This document shows, one piece after another, positions 21,751 to 56,543 of a stretch of 64,000 nt of DNA; position 1 is the first letter of the stretch; each line of letters starts with the position of its first letter. The stretch lies in NCBI GenBank assembly GCA_965242965.1, contig OZ251518.1, positions 3,513,838 through 3,577,837 of the forward strand. Reading direction: 5' to 3'. The DNA comes from Candidatus Poribacteria bacterium (GTDB lineage: Bacteria > Poribacteria > WGA-4E > WGA-3G). The notes beneath the pieces were generated by a model. That model had not been told where the DNA came from. It did not search any database and saw nothing but the letters and a program-made list of their open reading frames with translations. Position numbers and translations under genes: made by a program.

Positions 21751-22917
21751 TTACGCCGCGAATTGCTGGAGATTGGTGCCGTTCTGGTTCTGGAGCGAGT
21801 CCGTTGATAGTTGGCGCATCTCGCGGTTAAATTTTCCGTGCTGAATCAGGTTTTCCTCCGCAGGTTGTGTGCGGCTTTCCTCTTCTCGCTCCCCTGTCAG
21901 CATTGCAGCAATATCTTCCGGCAATTCAACGCCTCGTTCGCGGGCGGCAGCCAGATCTACTTCGGCTTTTTCCCATTCGCGCAGGTATGCCGACGCTAGG
22001 GCACGGGCGTAATAGGCTTGCCCATCAGGTTTCAATTTTATCGCTTTCGTGTAGTCAGCAATGGCTCGTGTAATCTTGCCTTTGCTAAAGTAAGCGTTGC
22101 CACGGATGAAATAGGCCTGAGATTCATTGGGCTCTCGTTCTATTGCCGCGTCATAGTTTGCAATAGCCTTATCTATCTCGTCTTTTAGAAGATAAGCAAC
22201 GCCGAGATTGAGATAGGCTCTCGCCTCCTCAGGGGTAAGTTCTATCGCTTTTTGGCAGTTTGTAATAGCCGAATCAGTTTCGCCTTTTTCGATGAAAGCA
22301 AAACCGAGACTGAGATAGGTTCTTGCATCAGTGGGATTCAGTCTTATTGCCTGCGTGTAGTCTTCAATCGCCAAGTCAACTTCGCCATTAGTGTAGTGAA
22401 CGTCGCCGCGCTTGACGTAGGCAGCGGCGTATTTGGGATTGAGTTCTATTGCCGTGGTAAAATCCATAACGGCTCTGTCAAACTCGCCTGCGAGTATGTA
22501 GACACCGCCGCGGTTATGGTAGAACTTAGCGTTCTCCGGATTGATGCGTATCGCCTGAGCGCAGTCCTTGATGGCGAGGCCGAACTTGCCTTTGATGGCA
22601 TAGGCAGTTCCTCGTTGCGCGTATGCTTCGGCATAGTCCGAATCAGACCGGATTGCGGCGGTGAAGTCCTGAATCGCTAAGTCAACTTCACCTTTTCCAT
22701 TGTAGGCGATGCCGCGGCTGTAATGGACGCGAGCACGCCGCCGGGTTCGTCTTAACGCGGAAGTAAAGTCCGCAATCGCCAGATCGAACTCCCCCATGCT
22801 GAGGTAGACATCGCCGCGGTGAATGTAGGGCACGACAAAGGGGTGACTCATCTCAATCGCGTTGGTAAAGTGCTTGACAGATTGTCTGTAATGCTCAAGC
22901 TGCGTTTGGGTTACCAT
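21751..22917 (-). CDS. tetratricopeptide (TPR) repeat protein
   Basis: About nine 34-aa repeats of the AYxxRGxAYxxKGxxDLAIxDxxxAIRLNP type. Confidence 0.8.
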   Translation of the reverse strand: MVTQTQLEHYRQSVKHFTNAIEMSHPFVVPYIHRGDVYLSMGEFDLAIADFTSALRRTRRRARVHYSRGIAYNGKGEVDLAIQDFTAAIRSDSDYAEAYAQRGTAYAIKGKFGLAIKDCAQAIRINPENAKFYHNRGGVYILAGEFDRAVMDFTTAIELNPKYAAAYVKRGDVHYTNGEVDLAIEDYTQAIRLNPTDARTYLSLGFAFIEKGETDSAITNCQKAIELTPEEARAYLNLGVAYLLKDEIDKAIANYDAAIEREPNESQAYFIRGNAYFSKGKITRAIADYTKAIKLKPDGQAYYARALASAYLREWEKAEVDLAAARERGVELPEDIAAMLTGEREEESRTQPAEENLIQHGKFNREMRQLSTDSLQNQNGTNLQQFAA

Positions 22918-23635
22918 TTTCTGAGTCTCCTTTCCGTTTATAGGCTAAGCCCAGATAAATCTCCGTGTAGAGTTCTAGGGTGCGGCGTTGATGGCCAATA
23001 AATCCGTGGATGTCGTTATAGATAGTCGCCGGCGTGATACCGTGATACCTATCAAGGTGTTCCCGCAACGGCTTTTTGAGGCCTGCTGGAATGTTGATAA
23101 CGTCGTTCCTGTTCGGTTCAATAAAACCGTCGGGATGTTCGACAAATACGCTTTTCTGTGCGATAACGCGATTTATCGGTTCATAAGGTTCTGCGATGTA
23201 GGCATTTAACAGTGCCTTTTCCTGCAAGATAACCCTACCGTTTTCACCAGGCGAACCGTCGCAGGCAAAGAAGAGCGCGATGAGGTAGTCCTCCGTAAAA
23301 TCGATGAGGTTGGTTTTTCCACCGTAGTGTTGGATTTCGGAGAGGCGTTCAAGTTCCTCCACCGGTTTACGGGAAAACTCTTTCACCGTGTCCAACATTT
23401 CTGTTTGGACTTCCGCTATATCAAATTGCTCCTGCACAACGTCAAAACCTTCGCGTCTGAGGAAGACGCGGTAGAGGTTTGATGAAACTTTCCCATGATA
23501 AGGCGGTTCCTGATAATGCGCCGGTTCACCGCGAAAAAGGTAATCGTCCTCGCGCGATTTTGCCTCAATTTTTCGGAGAAGTCCCTCAACGGTAGATTCC
23601 CCGTTGAGGGACTCGGTTTTGTTCGGTTTGCTCAT
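22895..23635 (-). CDS. FRG-domain protein
   Basis: DYLFRGE...IQHYGGKTNLIDFTEDYLIALFFAC matches the FRG domain pattern. ATG at 23635 with GGAG upstream; the longer ORF to 23671 lacks an RBS. Confidence 0.65.
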   Translation of the reverse strand: MSKPNKTESLNGESTVEGLLRKIEAKSREDDYLFRGEPAHYQEPPYHGKVSSNLYRVFLRREGFDVVQEQFDIAEVQTEMLDTVKEFSRKPVEELERLSEIQHYGGKTNLIDFTEDYLIALFFACDGSPGENGRVILQEKALLNAYIAEPYEPINRVIAQKSVFVEHPDGFIEPNRNDVINIPAGLKKPLREHLDRYHGITPATIYNDIHGFIGHQRRTLELYTEIYLGLAYKRKGDSENGNPNAA

Positions 23636-23706
23636 TCCTGCTCCTTTTAAAAATGATACCTTATTTGACAAAAGATATCAACCAAAAAGCGAGGCAGTGA
23701 ATGCGA

Positions 23707-33084: not shown

Positions 33085-33202
33085 TTCCGGCGGCGACTTA
33101 CTTTCCCACGGGGTTGCCCCCGCAGTATCATCAGCGCAGAAGGGCTTAACGGCCGTGTTCGGGATGGGAACGGGTGGTGCCCCTTCGCTATAGCCACCGG
33201 AA
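33085..33202 (-). rRNA. rrf: 5S ribosomal RNA
   Basis: Minus strand TCCGGTGGCTATAGCGAAGGGGCACCACCCGTTCCCATCCCGAACACGGCCGTTAAGCCCTTCTGCGCTGATGATACTGCGGGGGCAACCCCGTGGGAAAGTAAGTCGCCGCCGGAAAACC; ends approximate within ~3 nt. Confidence 0.9.
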
Positions 33203-33292
33203 AGGTGTTTTGTCATATATTGTATTGACAAGAAAATTTGACAATTGCATAGATTAGGTGAGGGTGTCGGTAGAAGAAATAATAAAGAAGTT

Positions 33293-36283
<2,991 letters not shown>

Positions 36284-36378
36284 ATAAGGTGATATTATTA
36301 TTCTACCGATTTACCCTCTCTATGCAATTGTCAAAGAACCCCGCCTTGCACAGGAGCGGGCGCTCCCTTACAAGACGA

Positions 36379-36451
36379 TGGAGATGAGCGGAGTTGAACC
36401 GCTGACCTTCTGGTTGCAAACCAGATGCTCTCCCAACTGAGCTACACCCCC
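36379..36451 (-). tRNA. tRNA-Ala (anticodon TGC)
   Basis: GGGGGTGTAGCTCAGTTGGGAGAGCATCTGGTTTGCAACCAGAAGGTCAGCGGTTCAACTCCGCTCATCTCCA; G3:U70 Ala identity pair present; CCA not encoded. Confidence 0.9.
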
Positions 36452-36469
36452 AAGTGGCATTACTCTTTA

Positions 36470-36901
36470 AGTATACCACAAAAAAACGCATTTGTCAAAT
36501 TTATTTTTCAAAAAAACGGATTTGCTGACACAAACCCTCGCGATGGTATATAGTATACCACGAAAACTGCGCAATGTCAAATTAAAATCAAATTAAAATG
36601 ACAATTTCGTCATCGTTGAGGTTAATTATACCACAAAAAAGATGCAATGTCAAATTAAAATGACGATTTCTGCGAATTTCTGCTGAATTACGCCACAAAA
36701 AGTGCGCGATGTCAAATTAAAACGACAATTTCGTCATCGTTGAGGTTAATTATACCACAAAAATGACGCAATGTCAAATTAAAATGACATTTTCTGCGGA
36801 ATTCTTGTTAATTCTGCCCCAAAAAGTGCGCGATGTCAAATTAAAACGACAATTTCGTCATCGTTGAGGTTAATTATACCACAAAAATGACGCAATGTCA
36901 A
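36470..36901 (-). promoter_or_regulatory. array of seven tandem sigma70-consensus promoters directed at tRNA-Ala/23S/5S
   Basis: Plus-strand coordinates of -35 (TGTCAA) and -10 (complement of the -10 hexamer), spacer exactly 17 in every case. P1: 36493-98 / 36470-75 (TATACT). P2: 36575-80 / 36552-57 (TATACT). P3: 36648-53 / 36625-30 (TATAAT). P4: 36710-15 / 36687-92 (CGTAAT). P5: 36772-77 / 36749-54 (TATAAT). P6: 36834-39 / 36811-16 (CAGAAT). P7: 36896-901 / 36873-78 (TATAAT). AT-rich UP-like TTTTAATT precedes each -35. Underlying ~125-bp tandem DNA repeats. Confidence 0.75.
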
Positions 36902-36903
36902 AT

Positions 36904-38859: not shown

Positions 38860-38878
38860 GCGCGCCCTCCGCGTTTGT

Positions 38879-39712
38879 TTACGGGGTATACCCGCGTTTG
38901 ACGTTTGCCCAAGTGGTTGCGAGTTTGTCAACCGCATCGACAGCAAAAGTGCCAGAGATGTTTTGGAGCACCTCTGCCTCGGTGAGTGCCTTATCATAAG
39001 CGCGGACGATGGCGAATGAACCGTTGAAAGTCCGCCGCCGTTCGTCGAAGGAATTCGCACCGATGGAGATGTCATTTATCGGTAACGCCTTGTCAAACTC
39101 AAAACCGGCTTGGCTGCTGACTTCTTCGCCATCTTGATATGCGACAATCGACTTGTCGTTAGTGCCGACAATCGTAAGCCAGGTCCACACGCCTTCCTCA
39201 AGTTTGAGGTTAAGCGGTTGAACGCCCTGTTTCGCACCTTGCGCATGGACAGAGATGTCCAAGTTTTGCCCGTTGACTATCCACAGCCGAATTCCCTGTT
39301 TCCCTTCCCGCGGGCTGTTTTGGAACCCGGCGAAGTGGTGTTCCTCCACAAAGAAATCGCCGTTGCGTCGGCAAAGGAACTCAAGCGTCCAGTCCTCAAA
39401 AAAGAGAGGCGGATTTTTTGCCGGCGGACCGCCGAAGGTTTGATGGGAATCCTTGGTTGTGTAATACTTCGCGTTCGGCAAGTCGATGCCGAGTGCAGGG
39501 ATTTTGATTGGCCCTTCCTCAAGTTCGGGTGCTTCGTCCGCGGCGGGTAATTCGCCTTCAGCCGTGCCGAGGTTTGTCCACGCGTCTTTGTGGCCTGGAT
39601 TATCAGCGGCATCGAGGTAAAGCACCGGGTCTGGAACGATATTAGCATTTGCGATGTTGCACGCGAGGGATAGGCAAAGTATCGTCGTGCAAAGTGAAAT
39701 AAGTGTTCTCAT
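38879..39712 (-). CDS. secreted LamG/concanavalin-A-like lectin-fold protein
   Basis: Signal peptide MRTLISLCTTILCLSLACNIANA; jelly-roll signature ...FNGSFAIVRAYDKALTEAEV. Confidence 0.6.
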   Translation of the reverse strand: MRTLISLCTTILCLSLACNIANANIVPDPVLYLDAADNPGHKDAWTNLGTAEGELPAADEAPELEEGPIKIPALGIDLPNAKYYTTKDSHQTFGGPPAKNPPLFFEDWTLEFLCRRNGDFFVEEHHFAGFQNSPREGKQGIRLWIVNGQNLDISVHAQGAKQGVQPLNLKLEEGVWTWLTIVGTNDKSIVAYQDGEEVSSQAGFEFDKALPINDISIGANSFDERRRTFNGSFAIVRAYDKALTEAEVLQNISGTFAVDAVDKLATTWANVKRGYTP

Positions 39713-39812
39713 TTGAGTCTTCCTCCTAGGGTTTGGAAAATAGATATGCCTCCGTTTCTGCTTGAAAACTATTATAACAGCATTTCAACATTTATTCAAG
39801 AGATAAAATAAG

Positions 39813-40560
39813 GGAATTTCATATTTCGATGTCTTTTTGGTAGGAGAGACCTCCCGGTCTCAATTTGTCCGTAGCGCGGGGGCCTGTCCCCCGCGATCGC
39901 AGCATGGCGAGGGACAGGCCCTCGCCCTACGGTGCGGGGGGTGGCGTTTTCGCGATCGCTGCATGGCCTACGATGAAGGGGGGAGGCGTTTTTTTTTCGT
40001 ATCGCGGGGGGGCTCGGATGCCAGACGCGCATCCGGGCTGGTTTCCCCCGCGAGTTCCATCGTCATGATGTGTGTTTCCCTCTCTGTAGTTTGTGATCGC
40101 CTGATCACAAACAGGTTAGGATCAGGCAATCCTGACCTACAGGGCCTGGCGCGAGAACGATGACGAGGGCCTGTCCCTCGCCATCGTTCGCGCTGCGGAA
40201 AAACCGTCTCTTGTTCTCTTCAGGTCCGTAGGACCTGAATGTCTATAGCAGCCGATACGCAAAATGCTCTAAGGGCCTTTAGGTCCTTAATAGCTTTTGC
40301 CAGGGCCGCGTGTTTTCTTATTAAGGACCTAAAGGACCTTGACAACGGTACGACACGTTTTTCTATAGACATGTAGGTCCTAACGGACCTAAAACGCCAC
40401 CTTGTGACGATGGAACAACGCGGGGGACAGGCCCCCGCGCTCCGGTAAAAAACGCCATCCCCTCACCGTAGGGCGGGGGCCTGTCCCTCGCCATCGTCCG
40501 CGCAATCCAATCCTCGCGGGGGACAGGCCCCGCGCTACGGATGCATCGAGACCAGGAGGT
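39813..40560. repeat. repeat island inside the 16S-23S insertion (E-like, A, B x3, D, B, C, B x2, A)
   Basis: Seen directly; ORFs 39837..40163, 39865..40068 and 40363..40803 (N-terminal part) are artefacts. Confidence 0.9.
40197..40397. repeat. C element copy 4
   Basis: AAAAACCGTCTCTTGTTCTCTTCAGGTCCGTAGGACCTGAATGTCTATAGCAG...TATTAAGGACCTAAAGGACCTTGACAAC...TATAGACATGTAGGTCCTAACGGACCTAAAACGCCAC. Confidence 0.85.
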
Positions 40561-40669
40561 CTCTCCTACCGGGATGCATGGATACCCGGCGCGCCTACCG
40601 GCAATTCCCCGTTTTTTGACTGTAGCTGAAGAAAACGCAATCGAAATCAGCAGCCATTGTGCATGTCTC

Positions 40670-40840
40670 CTAGCGAGTGTTTTCTGTAACGGCCGAGGGA
40701 TGTGGGCAGGTAACTTGCCCGGGTCTGTAATCACAATAACCTCTCCACCGGCATCCCTTCGTAACTGTTTGAGTCTTTTGACACCGGCTTCGTTCTGAGG
40801 CAACGATGAGAACCAGGAGAAAAACGATAAAGGCTTTCAT
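40670..40840 (-). CDS. possible small secreted Cys-containing peptide (56 aa)
   Basis: MKAFIVFLLVLIVASERSRCQKTQTVTKGCRWRGYCDYRPGQVTCPHPSAVTENTR; GGAG 8 nt upstream of the ATG. Below the 60-aa ORF-track cutoff; lies between a repeat island and tRNA-Ile. Confidence 0.3.
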   Translation of the reverse strand: MKAFIVFLLVLIVASERSRCQKTQTVTKGCRWRGYCDYRPGQVTCPHPSAVTENTR

Positions 40841-40988
40841 AAAACACTCCTTTTAAGAGCGACGGGCCATCGGGCAATTTGAAAAAACGAGGGGACAACG
40901 AGTAGGAAAGAAGGTATCCGTTCAGAAAACAACGACGATTTGAAAAGGGACCTTCCTTGAAAACCGCGCGATGTCAGTTTGATGTTGA

Positions 40989-41062
40989 TGGGCTTATCTG
41001 GAGTCGAACCAGAGACCTCGCGCTTATCAGGCGCGCGCTCTAACCGTCTGAGCTATAAGCCC
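40989..41062 (-). tRNA. tRNA-Ile (anticodon GAT)
   Basis: GGGCTTATAGCTCAGACGGTTAGAGCGCGCGCCTGATAAGCGCGAGGTCTCTGGTTCGACTCCAGATAAGCCCA; perfect 7-bp acceptor stem. Confidence 0.92.
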
Positions 41063-41160
41063 GAAGTAATGTTCTTGAAAGTTAAATAGTTTCAGTGAGT
41101 GTGCCCGTTAAGGTTCAGAGCGTGAACAGATGATTTGTGTGAGAAAGCATCTGTTGTATG

Positions 41161-42712
<1,552 letters not shown>

Positions 42713-42868
42713 CCACAAAAGTATTGAAGCACATCTCAAACGCAGGTAAGTGGAAAATCATACCCACGTCTTAATTGAGGTGCACTCACAAGCTATAAAA
42801 TAGGCACGTCACGTTCACTATTTAACTTTCAAAGAACAACTTCACCTTTCGTTGAAAGGTTATCTTTA

Positions 42869-48059: not shown

Positions 48060-48177
48060 AACAGGTTCTCCGTTTTGCTCTATTGGAGCGGGTTAAAGAG
48101 TTGATGAAAAGTGGTTGCGTCTCTACTATCATATTATAGCAAAAACGCAAAAATATGCAAGCATTTTTTTAATTTTA

Positions 48178-48743
48178 ACTGAGGGTGTTTCATATTTCGA
48201 TGGCTTCCCAGTAGGCGAGTTCTCCCGGTCTCGATTTCTTCGGGTAGGAGAGCCCTCCTGGTCTCGATGCAGTTTGTCCTCTGTCCCTCGCCATCGTTTG
48301 CACACTCAACGATCGCGGGGGACAGGCCCCCGCGCTACGGTAAAAAAACGCCCCGGGTTACCGTAGGGCGAGGGCCTGTCCCTCGCCGTGCCTGTTCCTT
48401 GTAAAAGACCGTAGTTCGGGAGCGCCCGCTCCCGAACCGTTTGTGATCAGGCGATCACAAACTACAGAGGTGGAAACACACATCATGACGATGGAGTTCG
48501 CGGGGGAAACCCGCTCGGATGCGCGGCTGGCATCCGAGGGCCCCCGCGCTACGATAAAAAACGCCATCCTTTCACCGTAGTACGTGGGCCTGTCCCTCGC
48601 CATCGTCCGCGCAATCCAACGCGCGGGGGACAGGCCCCCGCGCTACGGGAACATCGAGACCAGAGGGCTCTCCTACCGAGGATCTATTGAGACCGGGAAG
48701 TCTCTCCTACGGGTGTGCGTCGAAATATGAAACACCCTCATTT
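48178..48743. repeat. repeat island bracketed by 26-nt inverted terminal copies of the E motif
   Basis: Left ACTGAGGGTGTTTCATATTTCGATGG (48178-48203); right CGAAATATGAAACACCCTCATTTAAG (48718-48743). Interior: A x2, B pairs, D palindrome, B pairs, A x2. Confidence 0.9.
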
Positions 48744-49233
48744 AAGCCTTTTCGCCGGCCTGCTGTAATGCTTCATCAATAACCGATTTTCCCAAATAGA
48801 TTCCGTTCGTCTGCATCTGGGTTAAAAGCGGTTTGATGGTATCAATTAACCCGTTTTCCTTTGCTTCCAGCAAAACGCCGACGGTGCCTTTAACCGATAA
48901 TCCGATGTGTTGCGCATACCGTCTTGCTCGTTGCTCATCAATAATGACGAGGCGCGCGTTGTGTTCTATTGCCAAGGCAATGACTGCGGCCTCGCCCGGG
49001 TCAAGTTTTACCGGCATCAAAAGGGATGGCTGAACTGTCTTCGGAAATGTTCGGAGCCACGGCGAATTTTTCAGTGCATCCTCGCGGGCTGTCGGCTCAA
49101 CCCTAAGAAACTCATTTTTGACTTCTTCAGGCATCCACACCTCTGTATAGAGTTCGCGTAGCAGCGGCAGATGGTTGAGCATCCATAGCGCGACGAGTGG
49201 GCTATTATTGATTATTACCGGATGTGTGGGCAT
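48742..49233 (-). CDS. DUF3368-family PIN-like protein (putative toxin partnered with UPF0175)
   Basis: VIINNSPLVAL...GTVGVLLEAKENGLIDTIKPLL matches the DUF3368 pattern. Start set at ATG 49233 (MPTHP...); it overlaps the stop of the upstream UPF0175-containing gene by 29 nt. Confidence 0.65.
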   Translation of the reverse strand: MPTHPVIINNSPLVALWMLNHLPLLRELYTEVWMPEEVKNEFLRVEPTAREDALKNSPWLRTFPKTVQPSLLMPVKLDPGEAAVIALAIEHNARLVIIDEQRARRYAQHIGLSVKGTVGVLLEAKENGLIDTIKPLLTQMQTNGIYLGKSVIDEALQQAGEKA

Positions 49234-50419
49234 CCGCGCATTTTTGGCCATTCGCAAAATCCGCTGCCAGTTCCCCTGGTGTTTCGCCAAAGGGAGAAAG
49301 TCGGTATTTTCCCATAAAAATCATAAACTCGCTATACGGCATGCATGCCAGCCGTGCGGCAAGTCCGCTGCTGAGTTCATGGGTTTTGTAGTATTTCAAT
49401 GCTAACATCTGACGAGTCTCTTTTTCACATTCACCCGGGTCTTTCTTGCGAGTCAGCAGGGCGGCGATGTCCTCTGGCAATTTGATGCCAATTTTCCGTT
49501 CAAAATGGCCAACGCTTTTGTAGGTGTCATGGAACGCGGCGATGATATCCAGCACCTTGAACTTGGCGGCACCCAGGTCTGCTTTTGCCTTGTCCCATTC
49601 GCGCAGCCGTAGCCACGCTTCGCCCCGGTAGTAATGCGCCTCAGCATACGCCGGGTTGAGTGTTATCGCCGTGTTGTAGTCCTGGATCGCGCGTTCGGTT
49701 TTCCCTTGGCGAAGGTAAGCCACACCGCGATTGTTGTAAGCAATCGGTTCATCCGGTGCCAAGGCTATTGCGCGATTATAGTCCGCGATGGCACGTTCGC
49801 GCTCACCTTTTCTATCATAGACAATGCCTCGATTGATATACGCCTCGGTGCAATCTGGTTTGAGCATGATTGCAGTGCTATATTCTGCAATAGCAACGTC
49901 AATCTCCTCTTTTTTACACAAAGCGATGCCGCGGTTGACATACGCCTCGGCAAGTTTGGGATCGAGTGCTATCGCCGTGTTATAGTCTTCAATGGCGACG
50001 GCCATCGCTGTCGGATAGGGAGTTTCGCTGCAACGGCTAGGGGCCGGGTTCATGCCTACTGGGACGTTATAGCGTTTGAGGATTGCGTCAACCTCGCCGT
50101 TTTTTTCGTAAGCGATGCCGCGATTGACGTAGGCTTCGGCAAACGTTGACTCTAATTCAATCGCCTTGCTCAACACTGTGATAGCCATGTCATGGGAGCC
50201 GCATTTGATGGAATCCAACCCCAAATTGTAGTAGGCGTTCACGTAATCCGGACGCAATTCGATCGCCTGCATAAAAGCACCGATTGCCAAACCGTGCTCG
50301 CCTTCTTCACTATAAGCGATACCGCGGGCGTTGTATGTTTCGGCTAATTCTGCCTCTTGCAGTGTGTCAAGTGCCGTGTCAGCAAAGCCGACAGGAACTG
50401 CGATGAACTCTAGCATCAC
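49205..50419 (-). CDS. TPR-repeat protein fused to a C-terminal UPF0175-like antitoxin domain
   Basis: About eight TPR repeats (AYxNRGxAYxxxGxxxxAIxDYNxAIxLxP), then C-terminal ETRQMLALKYYKTHELSSGLAARLACMPYSEFMIFMGKYRLSPF, characteristic of UPF0175. Confidence 0.7.
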   Translation of the reverse strand: MMLEFIAVPVGFADTALDTLQEAELAETYNARGIAYSEEGEHGLAIGAFMQAIELRPDYVNAYYNLGLDSIKCGSHDMAITVLSKAIELESTFAEAYVNRGIAYEKNGEVDAILKRYNVPVGMNPAPSRCSETPYPTAMAVAIEDYNTAIALDPKLAEAYVNRGIALCKKEEIDVAIAEYSTAIMLKPDCTEAYINRGIVYDRKGERERAIADYNRAIALAPDEPIAYNNRGVAYLRQGKTERAIQDYNTAITLNPAYAEAHYYRGEAWLRLREWDKAKADLGAAKFKVLDIIAAFHDTYKSVGHFERKIGIKLPEDIAALLTRKKDPGECEKETRQMLALKYYKTHELSSGLAARLACMPYSEFMIFMGKYRLSPFGETPGELAADFANGQKCADAHTSGNNQ

Positions 50420-50498
50420 TTTTTCTCCTTTACAAAGTTGATTGCGTCTGGGAATATAATAACGGATTAGCGGACAGAAGTCAAGCGAAATTCGCGAT

Positions 50499-50890
50499 TT
50501 GTCTGAGGGTATTTCATATCTCGATGGCTTCCCCGTAGGAGAGCCCTCCCGGTCTCGATGCGAGCGGTGTCCCCGTAACCGAGCTCTCCTGGTCTCGATG
50601 CAATTTGTCCTTGTCCCTCGCTATCGTCCGCGTAATCCAACGCTCGCGGGGGACAGGCCCCCGCGCTACGGTTGTCAAGGCCGCTTCCTTTCATCGTAGG
50701 GCGAGGGCCTGTCCCTCGCCATGCTTCGATCCACCGAACGCTCGCGGGGGACAGGCCCCCGCGCTACGGTAACGGGAGGGGTTCTTAGTCGAAAAACGCC
50801 GTCCTTTCCCGTAGGGCGAGGGCCTGTCCCTCGCCATGCTGCGGTCTACCGGACAGTCGCGGGGGACAGTCCCCCGCGCTACGGTACTGT
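50499..50890. repeat. repeat island (E, A x3, B pairs x3)
   Basis: CTGAGGGTATTTCATATCTCGATGGCTTCCCCGTAGGAGAGCCCTCCCGGTCTCGATG... then REP-like pairs. Confidence 0.85.
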
Positions 50891-52960
50891 GACATTAATG
50901 CCATAAAGCGCAGCCACCTCCCGTTCCAGCACAACCTCAAGCGCAGATACATCCGCCGCAAAATCCGCGCGTTTCGCAGACAGAATCGCATCAACTAACG
51001 CAACAACCGGTGCCTGCCGCGCCGGCGAAACATCTGGAATCGGCAGTTTCTTCCAATCATCCGGATAGAGGTGGATATTGCTCCGACGATTTGCCATTAA
51101 GAAATCACGCGCTACGTTTGAATTCATCACGCCGAGCAGGAACTTCACCGAGAATCGACGACTCGTTTTTTCCAATTCTTCGCGCCGCGGGAGTTCCGGA
51201 CGCTGAGGCTTTTCATCACGATAACGAGCCTTCTGTTTTATCGAGCGGTTCCGAACCCCTGCTAAATCGTGCCAAAGCACGAAGGACCAGGCTGATTGAT
51301 TATGACGGAGATGCTGAGCATCGTAGGATACCTTCAATTTCTCAACGCCAGCCGCCATGTCCGCCGAAATTAATCTTTCCGCAACTTCGTATAATTCGGG
51401 AAACGTTGTTGACGTGAATAAGGCAGGCGCGCGTTCTGTCCCCCACTCCAGCCATTTCTTTGTCGCGGGCAGCCAGCGCGCGAGATGTTTGCCTTCCACA
51501 AACGGTTTCGGGTGAGTTGCGTCTTGGATATCTGAAACCAAATCCCGCACGCCAAACGCGCCGCGCGCGTGCTTGTTCGCATGAACTACCATCCCAACAG
51601 AGATATAGCAGAGGGTTTCAAGCGTCACCGTTGGAACAGAAAACTGCTGAACCTCGGTATCTTCCGGAAAAAAGAGACGATAGGTGAGGTTCCGTTGTGC
51701 GTCGGTTGGCAATAGAGTAACGTTCCCAAATTCGGGCCCGTGCAGCCTGCGTTCCGGTTGATGCTCGCGCCCATCAACTCTCTGAAACAGATAGGTGATA
51801 TTCCGCACGGCGGCATCGAAGATTCGGATATCGCGGAAGAAGTCAAGGCGACATATCCGACTATTCTCCCGAAACCACTCCTGCGATTTCTGGGCATACT
51901 TCGCGTGACAATAGGCATCCGAAACGATGAATGTCGTGAAACCTCCCGGCTTGAGCAGTTTGTAGCTGCGCTCAATAAATGGAATGTAGAGATCCCACTT
52001 TCCGAAGAGGGTTTCATACTGCGCGCTATCCTTAATTGCCTGACGCAACGCCTGTTGCCCCGGTGCATCCGCTCTCACGTAAGGCGGATTACCAATCGTA
52101 ATATCAAATCCTGCCGAAATCCCAAACATCCATTCCGCATTGAAGAAATCAGCAGAGGCGTTCTGATTATACGGGTCCCACGCTGCCAACTCTTGCGCCG
52201 TGCCACTCGGTAAGCCTAAGTCAGCAAGCAACGCGCTTATCTCCGTGCGCAAACGTTTATCCTGCCGGCGATACCGCGCCTTCGTCCGAAGCGTGCGAGC
52301 CGTGAAATGACGACGACGCACCTCTGATAGCTCCCGCTCCTTCTCGCTGATGTCGGGGCTGCGGAGAGACAATTGTCCTTCAATGCCGAGCAGCGTGTTC
52401 GCCGCAACGAACTTCGTTTCCAAATTCGGCAACGGCCGCACACCGCGATTCGCCTGTGTTTCGTCTAGCCGCTGATCGACGATAAGCGAGATGAAGAAGC
52501 GCAGCTTGGCAATCTGCGTCGCAATCGGCTGGATGTCCACGCCGTAGATGCAGTTTTCTATCAGATAGAGTTTCCTGCCGTAGTCCAGTTCGTTCCGTTC
52601 AAACGCGTCGTTGATGCTCTCTATCTCGCTTTCAAGTTCGTGGAGCGTGTTTTCGCGGAACGTGCTGTCGTCAATCTGTTCGGCGGCGGCGATGGTGCGG
52701 CGCACCCTGTCTATCTGGCGTTGCCGCCACTGTGCATTGCCCGGGTCAAGTTTACCAAGCAGGAAGACGAGTTTGTGCAGGATGCCCATCGGGAAGGCAC
52801 CGGAGCCGCAGGCAGGATCGAGGATTTTGAGCGCGTCAATGGCGGTGATGAGGCACTCGGTTTCTGCTTCGGTGAACCGATGCGGTTCATCGGTATAGGC
52901 GAGGAGGTGGCGCAGGGCTGCGTCCAAATCGGTGGACTTTACCCCCCCCCTTCGCGTCAC
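50879..52960 (-). CDS. MmeI-like Type IIG restriction-modification enzyme, C-terminal part (gamma-class N6-adenine methyltransferase motifs I and IV plus target-recognition region); frameshifted from the upstream ORF
   Basis: ILDPACGSGAFPMGIL (motif I) and ITIGNPPYVRAD (motif IV). The ORF begins with GTG inside a G9 run; it is out of frame by 1 nt with 52887..54515. Confidence 0.7.
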   Translation of the reverse strand: MTRRGGVKSTDLDAALRHLLAYTDEPHRFTEAETECLITAIDALKILDPACGSGAFPMGILHKLVFLLGKLDPGNAQWRQRQIDRVRRTIAAAEQIDDSTFRENTLHELESEIESINDAFERNELDYGRKLYLIENCIYGVDIQPIATQIAKLRFFISLIVDQRLDETQANRGVRPLPNLETKFVAANTLLGIEGQLSLRSPDISEKERELSEVRRRHFTARTLRTKARYRRQDKRLRTEISALLADLGLPSGTAQELAAWDPYNQNASADFFNAEWMFGISAGFDITIGNPPYVRADAPGQQALRQAIKDSAQYETLFGKWDLYIPFIERSYKLLKPGGFTTFIVSDAYCHAKYAQKSQEWFRENSRICRLDFFRDIRIFDAAVRNITYLFQRVDGREHQPERRLHGPEFGNVTLLPTDAQRNLTYRLFFPEDTEVQQFSVPTVTLETLCYISVGMVVHANKHARGAFGVRDLVSDIQDATHPKPFVEGKHLARWLPATKKWLEWGTERAPALFTSTTFPELYEVAERLISADMAAGVEKLKVSYDAQHLRHNQSAWSFVLWHDLAGVRNRSIKQKARYRDEKPQRPELPRREELEKTSRRFSVKFLLGVMNSNVARDFLMANRRSNIHLYPDDWKKLPIPDVSPARQAPVVALVDAILSAKRADFAADVSALEVVLEREVAALYGINVTVP

Positions 52961-54515
52961 AGATGTTAACTCTTAAGGCGTTTTTCAGATAGGCGATGAG
53001 GGATTCATTTACCATGTAATTGACGATGTCGCGCGGCGTGTAAAACGAGCCGGTCTGCTTGCGTGCGGTTATCCCCGTTTCGGGGTTAGAGGCGGCGAGG
53101 AGGTTTTCAAAGACGCGCCCGAGCAACTCGGGGTCCAACGCAACTTCCTCCTCGATGGGCGTATTCTCGGATATCGTGAACTTATAGCGGTTGAGAATGT
53201 GAATGATGCCGCGCACGGTATAGCGTCGGTTTCTCGTGCCGTAAACGGCGTTGAGATCTACGGTGTGTTCTTCGGCGAAGAAGAGTTCGTTGGGGACGCG
53301 CAGTGGGTTGTCGTCCCTGTCAGAAAAGCCTTCTACCCGTAAGATGCGTTGCGGCTGTTCAGCATCGGGTTTATCCAAACACTCAAACAGGCCGCCATTG
53401 AGGAACGGAATTGTCTCAAAGAGGCGGCGTGCTTCTTCGGGTTCCCGAAAATAGCGTTTGTATCGGTAAAGCGAGGTGATGTTATAGTGCTGTTGTCCAT
53501 CGCCACGGAACTGGCGGCGGTTTGGATGTTCCGGGGTGTTCATCTCCTGATTGAGCGTCGCGAAAAAGAGGTTTTGGAGGATGGCTTTGTAGTAGGAGGA
53601 ATCGAGCCCGGCGTTCTCGCCTACGGGGGAGATGAGCAGTCTGTTTATCTCCTTTTCATCAAAGAGCGCGTCTGGGACGAGCCCTTTCTCCTTGAGAAAC
53701 CAGACGAAGATAAGCCGCGTAATGAGCCGGATGACGCACGTAGCATTGCGCCCGGCAACGTCTTCGCCGGCATCGGCGGGGAAGGTGACGTTGTCCACAG
53801 CCCAGAAATACCAATCGGCGAGTTCCCGGAAGAAGCGTTTGTTGAGCGCGGCACTATCCAGCGTCTTCTGCCACGCTTGATGCAATTCAAGGAAATTGGT
53901 GAACTGATGGGCTCGGTGAAGTTCGCCGAGGGATAAGTCCGCCAGAATGTCCACGTGTGCGCGGTGCGGGTTGACGATGTCAATATCCTTGATGAGACTG
54001 ACTTTTTCGAGGACATCCCGTTCTCCCTCACGCTGGCTAGGACGGCGATGGATGAGGGAGAAAGTGAGCGTCTGTCCATGCTGAAAGAGGAGCATCGCGG
54101 GCATGGCGAACACTTTGTTGATTTCGCGGGTGATGTTGGCGAGCGCGGTGCGAGTGTAGACAGTCCCCCGCAGTTTGACAGCGAGGAAGAGATAGGCACG
54201 GTAGATGTCTGGGTTGAATCCGTCCTGTGCCGCGAAGGTTATGGTGCCTTGGGACTGCTGCGCGATTTCGTCTTCGGTGAGTTGGAAGAGAAAGTCGCAG
54301 GTATCCCATTCTGACAGTAACGCCTTTTCAGGGTTGAGCGTCCAACGCGCGAGGAATCCCTCGGCGGTGTTGGGTTCAATGGTAAGCGTTCTGTCGCTAT
54401 CATAACCTAACACGCCGAGGAGATGACGCGCGTTATCGGCGAGGGAACCGGATGTGAACCGACTAAGTGCCGCTTGAATCTGGGCTTTGTGGGATGCGTC
54501 GTTCATAAGTTGCAT
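52887..54515 (-). CDS. MmeI-like Type IIG restriction-modification enzyme, N-terminal part (nuclease-like region, helical linker and methyltransferase motif X)
   Basis: LDPELLGRVFENLLAASNPETGITARKQTGSFYTPRDIVNYMV (motif X of gamma-class MTases; compare MmeI ...FGSLFQSIM...GAHYTSEANILKLI). The helix VIRLITRLIFVWFLKEKGL resembles MmeI LYLVRLLFCLFAED. No motif I/IV in this fragment; they continue in the next ORF. Confidence 0.7.
   Translation of the reverse strand: MQLMNDASHKAQIQAALSRFTSGSLADNARHLLGVLGYDSDRTLTIEPNTAEGFLARWTLNPEKALLSEWDTCDFLFQLTEDEIAQQSQGTITFAAQDGFNPDIYRAYLFLAVKLRGTVYTRTALANITREINKVFAMPAMLLFQHGQTLTFSLIHRRPSQREGERDVLEKVSLIKDIDIVNPHRAHVDILADLSLGELHRAHQFTNFLELHQAWQKTLDSAALNKRFFRELADWYFWAVDNVTFPADAGEDVAGRNATCVIRLITRLIFVWFLKEKGLVPDALFDEKEINRLLISPVGENAGLDSSYYKAILQNLFFATLNQEMNTPEHPNRRQFRGDGQQHYNITSLYRYKRYFREPEEARRLFETIPFLNGGLFECLDKPDAEQPQRILRVEGFSDRDDNPLRVPNELFFAEEHTVDLNAVYGTRNRRYTVRGIIHILNRYKFTISENTPIEEEVALDPELLGRVFENLLAASNPETGITARKQTGSFYTPRDIVNYMVNESLIAYLKNALRVNICDAKGGGKVHRFGRSPAPPPRLYR
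52942..52950 (-). other. G9 (plus-strand C9) homopolymeric tract inside the RM gene, candidate slipped-strand phase-variation switch
   Basis: ACCCCCCCCCTTCGCG seen directly. Removal of one G fuses ...NICDAKGG to VKSTDLDAALRHLL... giving a ~1215-aa protein. Confidence 0.6.
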
Positions 54516-55512
54516 TCAGAAAATCGACTAATTCCGCGAAGTTATCGAAGATGCGTTCGCAGAGGTTTTCAAAAAAAATGCTCCGTTCGCCGCTGTAAAC
54601 AGCGTAGACAGGCTTGTTATAGCGAGAGGCATAGTTCATCTCACTCAGCACGCCGGGCGACAACTTGTCCGTAGGATAGATAACCACCACGAAATCACTC
54701 TGATGGAGAAACTGATAATCACGGGAGATAGTGCGGGTTTTGATTTGTTGAATGACGTTCTCGTCGATTGTCGGGATGCGGCGGTCCAACCCTATCGTCG
54801 AAGATTGGCTTTCCCGGACGAGTGCCATGTCCTTAATCGAAAGCGGATCAAAGACAATAAATGCCTCTCGCAGTTTTGCGCCGAGTGCACGAATCTCCTC
54901 AATTTCCGCCGGTGTCTCCCGCAAAATCGTGATGGGATAGCTGAGATACAGCGACGGTTTTGAAGAGAAAATCAGTTCATAAAAGTTATCAAGCGGATGC
55001 TGGCGCGCGACGGTGTAGTGGGATTTCTGATAGAGATTCGCGAGCTGCTTCGTCAGGAATTCCTCCTCGTCAATCCAGACGTTGAGCGTATCGTGCCCGA
55101 CGTTGCTCCACTGCGGGTTGTTCGCCATCCGGTTGGAGATGTCGGCGATGTTGTCAACGACGTTAATAAAAAGGTCTGGCGGGAAGCACTCGATCTCCTT
55201 AAACGAGATGCCTTCCAGCAGTGTGCCGCGCCAGCGGAAGCAGGCGTGCAAACCGATAACGGCGTGCTCGTAGTCGTCGGCGCGTTTGGCGATTTCATAA
55301 AAGGCAGCGCGACGCGCAAGGGATAAGACAGCCGGATCCGAATCCAGCACCTTTTCCGTGAAACGGATGCCGGATGCAGCGGCGGCGTTGTGCATGAAAT
55401 CGCCGACGTTAAAGAAGCCGATGTCTATCTCTTTTTGGTGACAGAGTGCCTCGAAATCGGCGATGAGTTCCTTGCGGCCGGCGCAGCTGATGCCGGTGCA
55501 GATGATGTTCAT
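54463..55512 (-). CDS. hypothetical two-domain protein: N-terminal P-loop-like region plus C-terminal nucleoside 2-deoxyribosyltransferase-like (Rossmann) domain
   Basis: Start set at ATG 55512 (MNIICTGISCAGRKE...); the longer ORF begins in a repeat island. C-terminus SLYLSYP...SDFVVVIYPTDKLSPGVLSEMNYASRYNKPVYAV fits the YLAGP...D.VVA.LDG...GT.FE.GYA.A.GKPV pattern of PF05014-like folds. Inference from motifs only. Confidence 0.5.
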   Translation of the reverse strand: MNIICTGISCAGRKELIADFEALCHQKEIDIGFFNVGDFMHNAAAASGIRFTEKVLDSDPAVLSLARRAAFYEIAKRADDYEHAVIGLHACFRWRGTLLEGISFKEIECFPPDLFINVVDNIADISNRMANNPQWSNVGHDTLNVWIDEEEFLTKQLANLYQKSHYTVARQHPLDNFYELIFSSKPSLYLSYPITILRETPAEIEEIRALGAKLREAFIVFDPLSIKDMALVRESQSSTIGLDRRIPTIDENVIQQIKTRTISRDYQFLHQSDFVVVIYPTDKLSPGVLSEMNYASRYNKPVYAVYSGERSIFFENLCERIFDNFAELVDFLNATYERRIPQSPDSSGT

Positions 55513-55529
55513 ATTTATGTTCCAATAAT

Positions 55530-55745
55530 GGCGAGGGACAGGCAGGCATTGGGCCCACCTCTGTAGTTCGGGAGCGCCCGATCCCGAACGGGTCAAGATC
55601 GCTTGGCAAACATGCCAGAGCTTCAGACGATCTTGACCTACAGGGGTGAGGCGTTCTGAACACCAAAACGCATGGCGAGGGACAGGCCCTCGCCCTACGA
55701 TAGAGAAGATGTCTCCGGTAGGAGAGACCTCCTGGTCTCGATGCC
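55530..55745. repeat. repeat island (B half, D palindrome, B, A)
   Basis: GGCGAGGGACAGGCAGGC..., CTCTGTAGTTCGGGAGCGCCCGATCCCGAACGGGTCAAGATCG...GATCTTGACCTACAGGGGTG, GGCGAGGGACAGGCCCTCGCCCTACG, CCGGTAGGAGAGACCTCCTGGTCTCGATG. Confidence 0.85.
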
Positions 55746-55757
55746 TCGATGCCTCCC

Positions 55758-56543
55758 TCACGAAGATAACCGGGCCAATGCCGCCTGCTCCTCTTTTTGC
55801 CATGGACGGTGCGCCGGTGTCTCCAATTTCTTCGGCGGACCGCCGAAGACGAGGATGTATGCACGCCGTTCTCGCGCGGTGCTATTCGGCGCGGCGTAAT
55901 GTAACGTGCGGCAGTGATGGAACGTCGCACCACCCGCGGGAATCGGGCATGCGACTGCCTCGGACGTATCCACATCGTCCGTGACTAAGCCGTGAACGAG
56001 CGGGTCATTGTCAATATGCCGATGCCACCGAACCTCACCTTTGTGGGATTTCGGAATGAATTGGAGGCACCCGCTCTCCACCGTCGCCGTGTCAAGCGGC
56101 AGCCAGACGCTGAGGCTGTGCGGCAAGACTTCGGGATTCCAATACGCTTCGTCTTGATGCCACGGGGTTTCATTGCCGTAATGCGCAGGCTTCAAGATCA
56201 TGTGTCCACCACCGCTAACCTTTTCCGAGTCTACGCTGAGTAGCGTGGCGGCGAGTCGGTGCGCGTTTTGGAAGTAAATCGTCTCGCGGAGCACTGGGAA
56301 TTGCGCCTCCGGTCCGAGCACTTGCGGCAACGTTTCGCGTCCCTTGTGTGCACGCGGACCGGCGAGATCGAAGTAGCGTCCCTCCGCCTCGCCGGTGCGT
56401 TCCGTGAAAAGTTCATCGTAGATGCCCTTTAGGAATTCGACCTCTTCATCTGTCGTGATGCGAGGGATGCTGAGGTAGCCGTTCGCTTGGAAAAAGGCGA
56501 TTTGTTCGTCGGTCACTTCAGCGTGGAAGTTGTTAGATTTCAT
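55758..56543 (-). CDS. phytanoyl-CoA dioxygenase (PhyH) family oxygenase
   Basis: WHQDEAYW...H...H pattern; ~260 aa. Confidence 0.75.
   Translation of the reverse strand: MKSNNFHAEVTDEQIAFFQANGYLSIPRITTDEEVEFLKGIYDELFTERTGEAEGRYFDLAGPRAHKGRETLPQVLGPEAQFPVLRETIYFQNAHRLAATLLSVDSEKVSGGGHMILKPAHYGNETPWHQDEAYWNPEVLPHSLSVWLPLDTATVESGCLQFIPKSHKGEVRWHRHIDNDPLVHGLVTDDVDTSEAVACPIPAGGATFHHCRTLHYAAPNSTARERRAYILVFGGPPKKLETPAHRPWQKEEQAALARLSS

What the first reader, a model, noticed from the sequence alone, without database searches (positions are those of the whole stretch)
48742..50419. TPR-repeat protein fused to a UPF0175 antitoxin domain, followed by an overlapping DUF3368 PIN-like toxin
The last ~45 aa of the 404-aa TPR protein (ETRQMLALKYYKTHELSSGLAARLACMPYSEFMIFMGKYRLSPF) match the UPF0175 family. 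UPF0175 is normally a free-standing ~80-aa antitoxin encoded just upstream of DUF3368 (PIN-like) genes. Here it is fused to eight TPR repeats, and the DUF3368 gene overlaps its stop by 29 nt. The second TPR paralog at 21751-22917 lacks the UPF0175 tail but shares the preceding LPEDIAA(M/L)LT motif. A TA antitoxin appended to a protein-interaction scaffold is unusual.
Basis: partly seen in the sequence, partly recalled or inferred. Interest (0 to 1): 0.6.

Follow-up and report, generated by a model that had tools for sequence, protein, structure and literature searches.

The report
TPR-extended antitoxin paired with PIN toxin
This is a real, conserved toxin-antitoxin-type gene pair from a Poribacteria genome whose antitoxin carries a long TPR protein-binding array; the fusion is common in that phylum and may make the toxin ligand-gated, but that is untested.

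Summary
On the minus strand, 49205-50419 encodes a 404-aa protein with seven TPR hairpins and a C-terminal UPF0175 domain (47.3 bits, cut-off 27.9). It overlaps by 29 nt a 163-aa DUF3368/COG2405 gene (48742-49233) whose model has a PIN fold.

The fusion is not an artefact. Orthologues of 77-96% identity sit at the same locus in related Poribacteria, with a conserved promoter and ribosome-binding site.

The fusion is rare in the described literature but common here. Among the 80 closest PIN genes in species-representative genomes (74 labelled Poribacteria), all 80 upstream partners carry UPF0175 and 72 carry TPRs.
- TPR HMM matches range from 3 to 31 per partner.
- Some partners add an N-terminal TIR or FRG domain.
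- Closely related PINs pair with very different arrays.

The "paralogue" at 21751-22917 belongs to a recurrent FRG + TPR-tail gene pair.

Best reading: a COG2886-COG2405 toxin-antitoxin module whose antitoxin has gained a TPR array, probably for ligand binding. Toxicity, neutralisation and any sensing are inferred, and defence-island context is weak. It is a new variant of a known kind.

The parts
50456..50484 (-). Sigma-70-like promoter: TTGACT, 17-nt spacer, TATTAT
   Evidence: scores it 10 of 12. The -35 hexamer is invariant and the -10 hexamer conserved in four orthologous loci.
50425..50428 (-). Shine-Dalgarno GGAG within AAAGGAGAAAAAGTGATG
   Evidence: Read from the sequence. The whole 18-mer is invariant in the orthologues.
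49205..50419 (-). TPR-UPF0175 gene (404 aa; the alternative ATG 50416 gives 403 aa)
   Evidence: ORF, Pfam. Orthologues are 96, 80 and 77% identical. The 90%-identity cluster holds 36 members, all 402-403 aa.
49559..50344 (-). TPR array, aa 26-287: seven helical hairpins
   Evidence: The AlphaFold2 model shows a solenoid with pLDDT about 95.
49997..50083 (-). 29-aa loop inserted in the third TPR (aa 113-141)
   Evidence: pLDDT is 38-63. The loop is present in orthologues L005, L009, L006 and L017.
49478..49558 (-). Conserved linker after the TPR cap (aa 288-314, ...DIIAAFHDTYKSVGHFERKIGIKL)
   Evidence: Two short helices in the model. The linker is conserved in fusion proteins and in TPR-tail proteins that lack the rest of UPF0175.
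49250..49477 (-). UPF0175 (COG2886) antitoxin-type helix-turn-helix domain, aa 315-390, starting with the LPEDIAALLT motif
   Evidence: PF03683 at 47.3 bits. PADLOC PDC-S70 model PDLC05075 at E 1.4e-5. Stand-alone 83-90-aa UPF0175 proteins align from the motif onward.
48742..49233 (-). DUF3368/COG2405 PIN-like gene (163 aa); overlaps the upstream gene by 29 nt (49205-49233)
   Evidence: PF11848 at 59.1 bits. PIN fold. PDC-S70 at E 3e-45. N9, E41, E81 and D99 are the same residue in every homologue with a residue at those columns.
48174..48745 (.). REP-like palindromic repeat cluster just after the PIN stop codon, bounded by 26-nt inverted copies
   Evidence: The repeat is genome-wide, with 53 matches (both strands counted) in the window. 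The cluster is absent at this position in L009 and replaced by a second cassette in L006.
50498..50886 (.). REP-like repeat cluster upstream of the cassette promoter
22895..23671 (-). FRG-domain gene (258 aa) overlapping the start of the TPR paralogue by 23 nt
   Evidence: PF08867 at 42.8 bits. PADLOC PDC-S15. Aligns to aa 2-220 of the FRG-TPR-UPF0175 fusion in L048.
21751..22917 (-). TPR-tail paralogue (388 aa): TPR array ending in ...VELPEDIAAMLT, with no helix-turn-helix part and no PIN gene
   Evidence: Collinear with aa 223-580 of the L048 fusion. The same two-gene FRG + TPR-tail arrangement occurs in L090.
50879..54515 (-). Type IIG restriction-modification-like genes directly upstream (two ORFs, with an Eco57I methylase domain)
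   Evidence: Syntenic in L005, L006, L009 and L016.

Best explanation
This is a two-gene, translationally coupled operon of the COG2886(UPF0175)-COG2405(DUF3368 PIN) toxin-antitoxin type, expressed from its own conserved promoter.

Gene 2 encodes a PIN-fold nuclease-like toxin. Gene 1 encodes its cognate UPF0175 helix-turn-helix antitoxin domain, permanently fused to the C-terminus of a seven-hairpin TPR solenoid through a conserved linker.

Inferred mechanism:
- The UPF0175 domain and its C-terminal helix hold the PIN protein inactive, and probably repress the promoter, as proposed for stand-alone pairs.
- The TPR array is an added protein- or peptide-binding module. It would make neutralisation depend on a bound ligand or on oligomeric state, so the toxin is released, or the antitoxin destabilised, on a specific cue.
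- In relatives the same scaffold also carries N-terminal TIR or FRG (NADase-type) domains. The family therefore behaves like a modular 'effector - TPR - tethered toxin' conflict system.

Shown: gene structure, domains, PIN fold, conservation, family-wide modularity.
Inferred: toxicity, neutralisation, DNA binding, ligand gating, and the biological role (defence, stress response or addiction).
For: Domains and fold:
- Both domains pass the Pfam cut-offs.
- The PIN model has pLDDT 91 and matches VapC4 and 2mdt.
- The fusion model shows a solenoid, linker helices, a disordered hinge at aa 323-332, and then a helical UPF0175 domain with a terminal helix.

It is a real gene:
- Syntenic orthologues are 77-96% identical, with the TPR region about as conserved as UPF0175.
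- The promoter and ribosome-binding site are conserved.
- 36 near-identical full-length copies occur in metagenomes.

Family:
- All 80 partners of the closest PINs carry UPF0175 and 72 carry TPRs, at 3-31 HMM matches and 90-1301 aa.
- Pfam confirms N-terminal TIR_2 or FRG in some partners.
- Closely related PINs pair with TPR3 versus TPR25, or with no, TIR or FRG N-termini.
- Tandem cassettes are gained or lost at the syntenic locus.

Baseline:
- Stand-alone UPF0175 + DUF3368 pairs are a predicted TA (PMC2701414, PMC5499597).
- A canonical 83-aa + 165-aa pair sits beside a BREX PglZ gene.
- The PIN matches PADLOC candidate PDC-S70 and the FRG matches PDC-S15 (bioRxiv 10.1101/2024.01.29.577857). 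The FRG domain is described as a possible NADase effector of the ART (ADP-ribosyltransferase) superfamily (PMC9503650).
Against: - No UPF0175-COG2405 pair has been tested experimentally in the literature I could search. PDC-S70 itself is unvalidated.
- The first canonical PIN acidic position is Asn in all 81 sequences, and also in a distant plasmid homologue. Nuclease activity is therefore not assured. PMC5499597 lists COG2405 as having 2-5 active-site residues.
- Nearest neighbours of 75 cassettes are mostly metabolic genes. Only about 12 of 143 are R-M components, so there is no strong defence-island signal.
- No relatives were found on phage records or viral contigs.
- The TPR region is not hypervariable among orthologues.
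- No conserved operator palindrome was found.
- Many stand-alone 90-aa relatives exist: only 12 of the 120 best hits have TPRs. The TPR is therefore dispensable for the core module.
Confidence: 0.55

Rival explanations
1. This is an ordinary addiction-type TA module, and the TPR part is passenger cargo or a stabilising scaffold. The TPR might be a 'eukaryote-like' repeat protein used for something else, such as host interaction. Fusion to the antitoxin would only ensure retention and spread of the TPR gene, or lengthen the antitoxin's half-life. No ligand gating would be involved.
For: - Cassettes are scattered among housekeeping genes.
- Some lie next to IS elements and are duplicated within one genome (L001 and L002).
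- TPR-tail proteins without the helix-turn-helix part or a PIN gene are common. They could be what remains after the TA part decays.
- In L003 the PIN gene is reduced to a 35-aa stub.
- Sponge-symbiont papers treat TPR proteins as host-interaction factors (papers listed).
Against: - The N-terminus is not an obvious secretion signal by eye (no predictor was run), and the helix-turn-helix and PIN partners are cytoplasmic by nature (my inference).
- The linker and tail are strongly conserved even in tail-only proteins, which argues for function rather than decay.
- N-terminal TIR or FRG domains recur on the same scaffold.
Confidence: 0.25
2. The protein is mainly a ligand-responsive transcription factor: a TPR sensor plus a helix-turn-helix, analogous to RRNPP/AimR peptide-sensing regulators. 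The PIN protein would be a co-regulator or regulated output rather than a toxin that needs neutralising.
For: - UPF0175 is predicted to be a Fis-like helix-turn-helix (PMC2701414).
- TPR plus helix-turn-helix is the RRNPP domain set (my own knowledge).
- The PIN active site is non-canonical, N/E/E/D.
Against: - The domain order is the reverse of RRNPP.
- UPF0175 is reported to occur only next to COG2405 genes (PMC5499597).
- The 29-nt overlap and the strict pairing in 80 of 80 loci fit a TA-like stoichiometric partnership.
- No conserved operator was seen.
Confidence: 0.12
3. The fusion is an artefact: an assembly error, or a frameshift joining a TPR gene to a small antitoxin gene.
For: None found. 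It was considered only because the architecture is unusual.
Against: - The same full-length architecture occurs in independent assemblies at 96, 80 and 77% identity.
- The 90%-identity cluster holds 36 members, all 402-403 aa.
- 72 further fusions were found in other genomes.
Confidence: 0.02

Closest known systems
COG2886 (UPF0175) - COG2405 (DUF3368 PIN) predicted type II TA pair, VapBC-like (Makarova 2009, PMC2701414; Matelska 2017, PMC5499597)
   Same: The same two Pfam families occur in the same order on the same strand, with overlapping genes. The toxin has a PIN fold. The N/E/E/D residues are shared with a canonical plasmid pair of 83 aa + 165 aa.
   Different: The antitoxin is 404 aa, not about 85 aa. 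A seven-hairpin TPR array and a conserved linker precede the UPF0175 domain. Relatives add TIR or FRG domains.
PADLOC phage-defence candidate PDC-S70 (with PDC-S15 for the FRG gene)
   Same: The PIN protein matches PDC-S70 models over their full length (E 3e-45). The UPF0175 part matches the small PDC-S70 model. The window's FRG protein matches PDC-S15.
   Different: These candidates come from 'guilt by embedding' and have not been tested (bioRxiv 10.1101/2024.01.29.577857). They do not include a TPR array. Defence context is weak for the Poribacteria cassettes.
Antitoxins or fused TA proteins that act as infection sensors, for example CapRel (my own knowledge, not checked here)
   Same: The concept is the same: the antitoxin moiety carries the element that decides when the toxin is released.
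   Different: The toxin, the antitoxin fold and the added module are all different. Nothing here shows sensing.
TPR-sensor immune proteins: STAND/Avs-type NTPases with TPR arrays, and TIR-TPR proteins (eLife 2020, PMC7159879; my own knowledge)
   Same: The effector-plus-repeat-array logic is shared. So are variable repeat numbers, TIR or FRG at the N-terminus of relatives, and shuffling of domains between close relatives.
   Different: No NTPase or other switch domain is present. The nuclease is a separate protein held by an antitoxin domain.
TPR-GreAB-C-PIN system (Pfam PF20698)
   Same: It also links a TPR protein with a PIN protein.
   Different: The PIN scores only 13.6 bits against a cut-off of 27.8, and no GreAB-C domain is detected.
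RRNPP/AimR helix-turn-helix + TPR peptide-sensing regulators (my own knowledge)
   Same: A helix-turn-helix and a TPR domain lie on one chain.
   Different: The order is reversed, the helix-turn-helix family is different, and there is an obligatory PIN partner.

Membership tests
COG2886-COG2405 (UPF0175-DUF3368 PIN) type II TA | The upstream gene product contains a UPF0175 domain | tested here: met
   PF03683 at 47.3 bits against a cut-off of 27.9, covering model positions 2-75 of 75.
COG2886-COG2405 (UPF0175-DUF3368 PIN) type II TA | The downstream gene product is a COG2405/DUF3368 PIN-fold protein | tested here: met
   PF11848 at 59.1 bits. The AlphaFold2 model matches VapC4 (5h4g) and the COG2405 structure 2mdt.
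COG2886-COG2405 (UPF0175-DUF3368 PIN) type II TA | Antitoxin gene directly upstream of the toxin gene, on the same strand, adjacent or overlapping | tested here: met
   29-nt overlap. The same layout is seen in 80 of 80 related loci.
COG2886-COG2405 (UPF0175-DUF3368 PIN) type II TA | Antitoxin is a small single-domain protein (about 80-100 aa) | tested here: not met
   The protein is 404 aa with seven TPR hairpins. Canonical examples are 83-90 aa.
COG2886-COG2405 (UPF0175-DUF3368 PIN) type II TA | PIN catalytic acidic residues are present | tested here: inconclusive
   E41, E81 and D99 are the same in every aligned sequence with a residue there, but the first position is Asn throughout the family. 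PMC5499597 lists 2-5 active-site residues for COG2405.
COG2886-COG2405 (UPF0175-DUF3368 PIN) type II TA | The toxin arrests growth, the antitoxin neutralises it by binding, and the antitoxin autoregulates the operon | not testable with these tools
   This needs expression, binding and DNA-binding (EMSA) experiments. No published test of this pair type was found.
PADLOC PDC-S70 defence candidate | Proteins match the PDC-S70 HMMs | tested here: met
   PIN at E 3.3e-45 over the full length; UPF0175 part at E 1.4e-5.
PADLOC PDC-S70 defence candidate | Protects against phage | not testable with these tools
   The candidate family is itself unvalidated.
TPR-GreAB-C-PIN system (PF20698) | PIN belongs to the PF20698 family and a GreAB-C domain is present | tested here: not met
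   13.6 bits against a cut-off of 27.8, and no GreAB-C match.
STAND/Avs-type TPR immune sensors | A central STAND NTPase domain | tested here: not met
   No NTPase family among the Pfam or NCBIfam matches shown (best 25 per protein). Non-TPR regions of relatives are TIR or FRG only.
RRNPP-type helix-turn-helix + TPR regulators | N-terminal XRE-type helix-turn-helix followed by a C-terminal TPR peptide-binding domain | tested here: not met
   The order is TPR then UPF0175, and no XRE helix-turn-helix match was found.

The most novel reading that the evidence does not exclude
Poribacteria would carry a large family of NTPase-less, modular immune or conflict receptors built on a TA chassis. In this reading a variable TPR array senses a protein ligand and gates up to two effectors at once. 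One is a PIN nuclease held by the C-terminal UPF0175 antitoxin domain. The other is an N-terminal NADase-type domain (TIR or FRG). The family would be an evolutionary bridge between toxin-antitoxin modules and repeat-based pattern-recognition receptors. It would also mean that part of the phylum's 'eukaryote-like' TPR repertoire is defence hardware rather than host-interaction machinery.
Probability: 0.25. Interest if true: 0.75.

Novelty: new variant of a known kind. Interest (0 to 1): 0.55.

Why it matters
The UPF0175-COG2405 pair is a widespread TA-type module that has only been predicted, and it is also listed as an untested phage-defence candidate. This locus shows that in one phylum its antitoxin has repeatedly been built onto a TPR array whose repeat number changes fast, and that sometimes carries TIR or FRG domains.

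If the array gates toxin release, three things follow:
- It gives a simple, testable model of how a TA module becomes a ligand-controlled effector system without any NTPase switch.
- It points to where the toxin-binding and signal-receiving parts lie.
- Sponge-symbiont genomics, where TPR proteins are usually counted as host-interaction factors, would need to treat part of that count as TA-linked.

If the array is only cargo or a scaffold, the locus remains a clear case of a TA module driving the spread of a repeat-protein family.

Tried and rejected
- **PDB sequence searches.** Searches with the PIN protein and the UPF0175 region found nothing meaningful. Only the fold search worked.
- **AFDB fold search.** The afdb50 library was not available, so I could not look for the architecture in other phyla by structure.
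- **Mobile-cassette idea.** The cassette is flanked by repeat clusters with 26-nt inverted ends. I rejected these as specific evidence because the same REP-like palindromes fill intergenic regions across the whole window.
- **Operator search.** A palindrome next to the -35 hexamer (GCGAATTTCGC) is present only in the window, not in the orthologues.
- **Defence-island test.** The nearest neighbours of 75 cassettes are mostly metabolic genes. The type IIG R-M neighbour in the window is locus-specific synteny, not a general rule.
- **Phage and plasmid carriage.** There was no phage match and no viral-contig relative. Plasmids gave only two weak stand-alone UPF0175 hits.
- **Hypervariability of the TPR among orthologues.** Not seen.
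- **UPF0175 or PIN remnants near the paralogue.** A hidden UPF0175 in another frame and a PIN remnant were both looked for and not found.
- **Frameshift reading of the FRG/TPR junction.** The junction at 22895-22917 could be read as a frameshift in a once-fused gene. The same two-gene layout in L090 makes a regular two-gene arrangement at least as likely.
- **TPR-GreAB-C-PIN membership.** Rejected.
Full report
**1. What is there**

The finding lies on the minus strand.
- ORF 49205-50419 encodes 404 aa, and ORF 48742-49233 encodes 163 aa. They overlap by 29 nt.
- In the first protein Pfam finds multiple TPR families and a UPF0175 domain. UPF0175 scores 47.3 bits against a cut-off of 27.9, at aa 315-390, covering essentially the whole 75-position model.
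- In the second protein Pfam finds DUF3368 at 59.1 bits against a cut-off of 27.3.
- NCBIfam adds nothing specific.
- An AlphaFold2 model of the second protein (pLDDT 91.3) matches PIN/VapC structures. These include P. horikoshii VapC4 (5h4g) and SSO1118 (2mdt), the solved member of the COG2405 cluster (PMC5499597).

**2. Anatomy of the fusion protein**

The model (pLDDT 85) shows the following parts:
- fourteen helices forming seven TPR hairpins (aa ~10-287, pLDDT about 95);
- two short linker helices (aa 292-310) and a helix on the LPEDIAALL motif (aa 316-322);
- a low-confidence hinge (aa 323-332);
- a small helical UPF0175 domain (aa 333-370) and a terminal helix (aa 381-403).

My TPR HMM gives eight matches because the third repeat is split by a 29-aa loop. 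That loop is predicted disordered and is conserved in orthologues.

Stand-alone UPF0175 proteins of 83-90 aa align with the window protein from 'IKLPEDIAALL' onward.

**3. It is a real, expressed-looking gene pair**
- A sigma-70-like promoter (TTGACT, 17 nt, TATTAT, at 50484-50456) and the AAAGGAGAAAAAGTGATG ribosome-binding and start region are conserved in four orthologous loci.
- The cassette is syntenic, lying between a type IIG R-M-like methylase gene and a xanthine-dehydrogenase-type operon. Nucleotide identity is 96% in L005 and 80-86% in L006, L009 and L016.
- Protein identity to the orthologues is 96, 80 and 77%. The TPR region is about as conserved as the UPF0175 domain.
- The 90%-identity cluster of the orthologue holds 36 members, all 402-403 aa.

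An assembly or frameshift artefact is excluded.

**4. The family**

A scan of one genome per species with a PIN alignment returned 80 loci. Of these, 74 are labelled Poribacteria, two Latescibacteria-type, one Chloroflexota and three 'uncultured bacterium'. I extracted the ORF ending at each PIN start.
- All 80 partners carry UPF0175 and 72 carry TPRs.
- Partner length runs from 90 to 1301 aa, with 3-31 TPR HMM matches.
- Only eight partners are classic short antitoxins, and their PINs form one clade.
- Some partners have an extra N-terminal domain. TIR_2 was verified in L008/L023, L022 and L054, and is doubled in L060. FRG was verified in L048 and L071.
- In the PIN tree, close relatives pair with very different arrays, for example TPR3 beside TPR25 and TPR10. 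They also pair with no, TIR or FRG N-termini.
- Cassettes occur in tandem in L005, L006, L057, L066 and L073. They are gained or lost at the window's own locus.
- In L003 the PIN is reduced to a 35-aa stub.

One caveat applies. The 72-of-80 figure describes the PIN clade nearest the window. A profile search of 5.8 billion proteins found 1520 relatives of the tail at E <= 1e-8, and only 12 of the 120 best-scoring have TPRs. Stand-alone relatives are therefore plentiful.

**5. The 'paralogue'**

ORF 22895-23671 is an FRG-domain protein that overlaps the start of the TPR ORF 21751-22917 by 23 nt.
- Together the two ORFs are collinear with the single FRG-TPR-UPF0175 protein of L048. The FRG ORF aligns to aa 2-220 at 45% identity, and the TPR ORF to aa 223-580.
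- The window copy stops just after LPEDIAAMLT, and no UPF0175 remainder or PIN follows.
- The same FRG + TPR-tail two-gene layout occurs in L090, next to a TIR-TPR-tail gene and a type IIG R-M gene.
- Several TPR or TIR-TPR proteins end right after this motif: P0192, P0217, P0229 and P0266.

The common core of the wider family is therefore 'TPR array + conserved linker/tail'. UPF0175 + PIN is one C-terminal option, and TIR or FRG are N-terminal options.

**6. What is known**
- COG2886/UPF0175 was predicted as a helix-turn-helix antitoxin of PIN toxins (PMC2701414).
- COG2405/DUF3368 is a VapC-like PIN cluster with 2-5 active-site residues. UPF0175 is reported to occur only in its context (PMC5499597).
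- A canonical pair (83 aa + 165 aa, 8-nt overlap) sits directly upstream of a BREX PglZ gene on a Thioflavicoccus plasmid.
- PADLOC lists the PIN and the small antitoxin as candidate PDC-S70, and FRG proteins as PDC-S15. These candidates came from 'guilt by embedding' and are untested (bioRxiv 10.1101/2024.01.29.577857; PMC12988326).
- The FRG domain is described as an ART-superfamily, possibly NADase, antiviral effector (PMC9503650).
- I found no paper describing a TPR-UPF0175 fusion. No source in the protein collection gives these proteins a name.

**7. Mechanism**

Shown: the architecture, the PIN fold, the coupling of the two genes, and the modular, fast-changing family.

Inferred:
- The UPF0175 part neutralises the PIN and may repress the promoter.
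- The TPR array binds a protein or peptide and thereby controls neutralisation or antitoxin stability.
- The presence of TIR or FRG on the same scaffold, the repeat-number turnover and the domain shuffling fit a conflict system.

Against a defence role:
- Nearest neighbours of 75 cassettes are mostly metabolic genes. Only about 12 of 143 are R-M components, and I had no genome-wide background for comparison.
- No phage or viral-contig copies were found.
- Orthologous TPRs are not hypervariable.

The PIN site reads N9/E41/E81/D99 in all 81 sequences and in the distant plasmid homologue. Catalysis is therefore plausible but unproven.

Rivals are a plain addiction module with TPR as cargo or scaffold, and a TPR + helix-turn-helix regulator.

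**8. Verdict**

The object is a member of the COG2886-COG2405 TA type in every sequence-level feature except antitoxin size and architecture. I file it as a new variant of a known kind. Interest is moderate: the fusion is undescribed and forms a large modular family with TIR and FRG variants, but function rests on inference.

Noticed in passing
window 33085-42719 (minus strand): The rRNA operon is interrupted. It runs 16S (41169-42719), tRNA-Ile (40989-41062), about 4.5 kb of other sequence, tRNA-Ala (36377-36452), 23S and 5S. The 4.5 kb holds a 723-aa WD40 protein gene (36904-39075), a 277-aa Laminin_G_3 protein gene (38879-39712) and REP copies. Protein-coding genes therefore sit inside the 16S-23S spacer.
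   Followed up: partly
whole window; clusters at 48174-48745 and 50498-50886: REP-like GC-rich palindromes (CGCGGGGGACAGGCCCCCGCG) give 53 matches (both strands counted) in 64 kb and fill many intergenic regions. The block 48175-48745 is bounded by 26-nt inverted copies of TTAACTGAGGGTGTTTCATATTTCGA. The inner copy overlaps the PIN stop codon. The block is absent at this site in L009.
   Followed up: partly
L003 and L004, 3254-3918: A 98-aa TPR protein gene is overlapped by a 130-aa Fic/Doc gene, so a TPR protein sits in the antitoxin position of a different toxin family. It lies beside a TPR-UPF0175 gene whose PIN is reduced to a 35-aa stub.
   Followed up: partly
window 50879-55803 (minus strand): Directly upstream of the cassette lie two ORFs that together resemble a split type IIG restriction-methylase (50879-52960 and 52887-54515). 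Next to them is a 446-aa protein (54463-55803) with a weak, sub-threshold nucleoside 2-deoxyribosyltransferase-like match.
   Followed up: partly
L005 3162-3644: A 160-aa protein with no Pfam match lies between the two tandem TPR-UPF0175/PIN cassettes of the closest relative.
   Followed up: no
L091 (Thioflavicoccus mobilis plasmid pTHIMO01, 75230-75971): A canonical 83-aa UPF0175 + 165-aa DUF3368 pair lies immediately upstream of a PglZ (BREX) gene. Its PIN also has Asn at the first catalytic position.
   Followed up: yes
L009 4330-4331, relative to window 48832-48903: The syntenic PIN gene of L009 lacks 72 nt (24 codons) in the DUF3368 region compared with the window.
   Followed up: no
proteins P0149 and P0174: P0149 (184 aa) carries both PF03683 and PF11848 on one chain, so it may be a fused antitoxin-toxin or a frameshift. 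P0174, a repeat protein of unrelated sequence, gave multi-stretch hits that look spurious; P0167 and P0188 (~1330 aa) gave similar multi-stretch hits but I did not read their sequences.
   Followed up: no
window 19656-21668 and 18213-19628: Next to the FRG/TPR pair lie an LRR + GHL15 + dockerin protein and a sulfatase. These gene types are typical of sponge-associated Poribacteria (the lifestyle link is my own knowledge).
   Followed up: no
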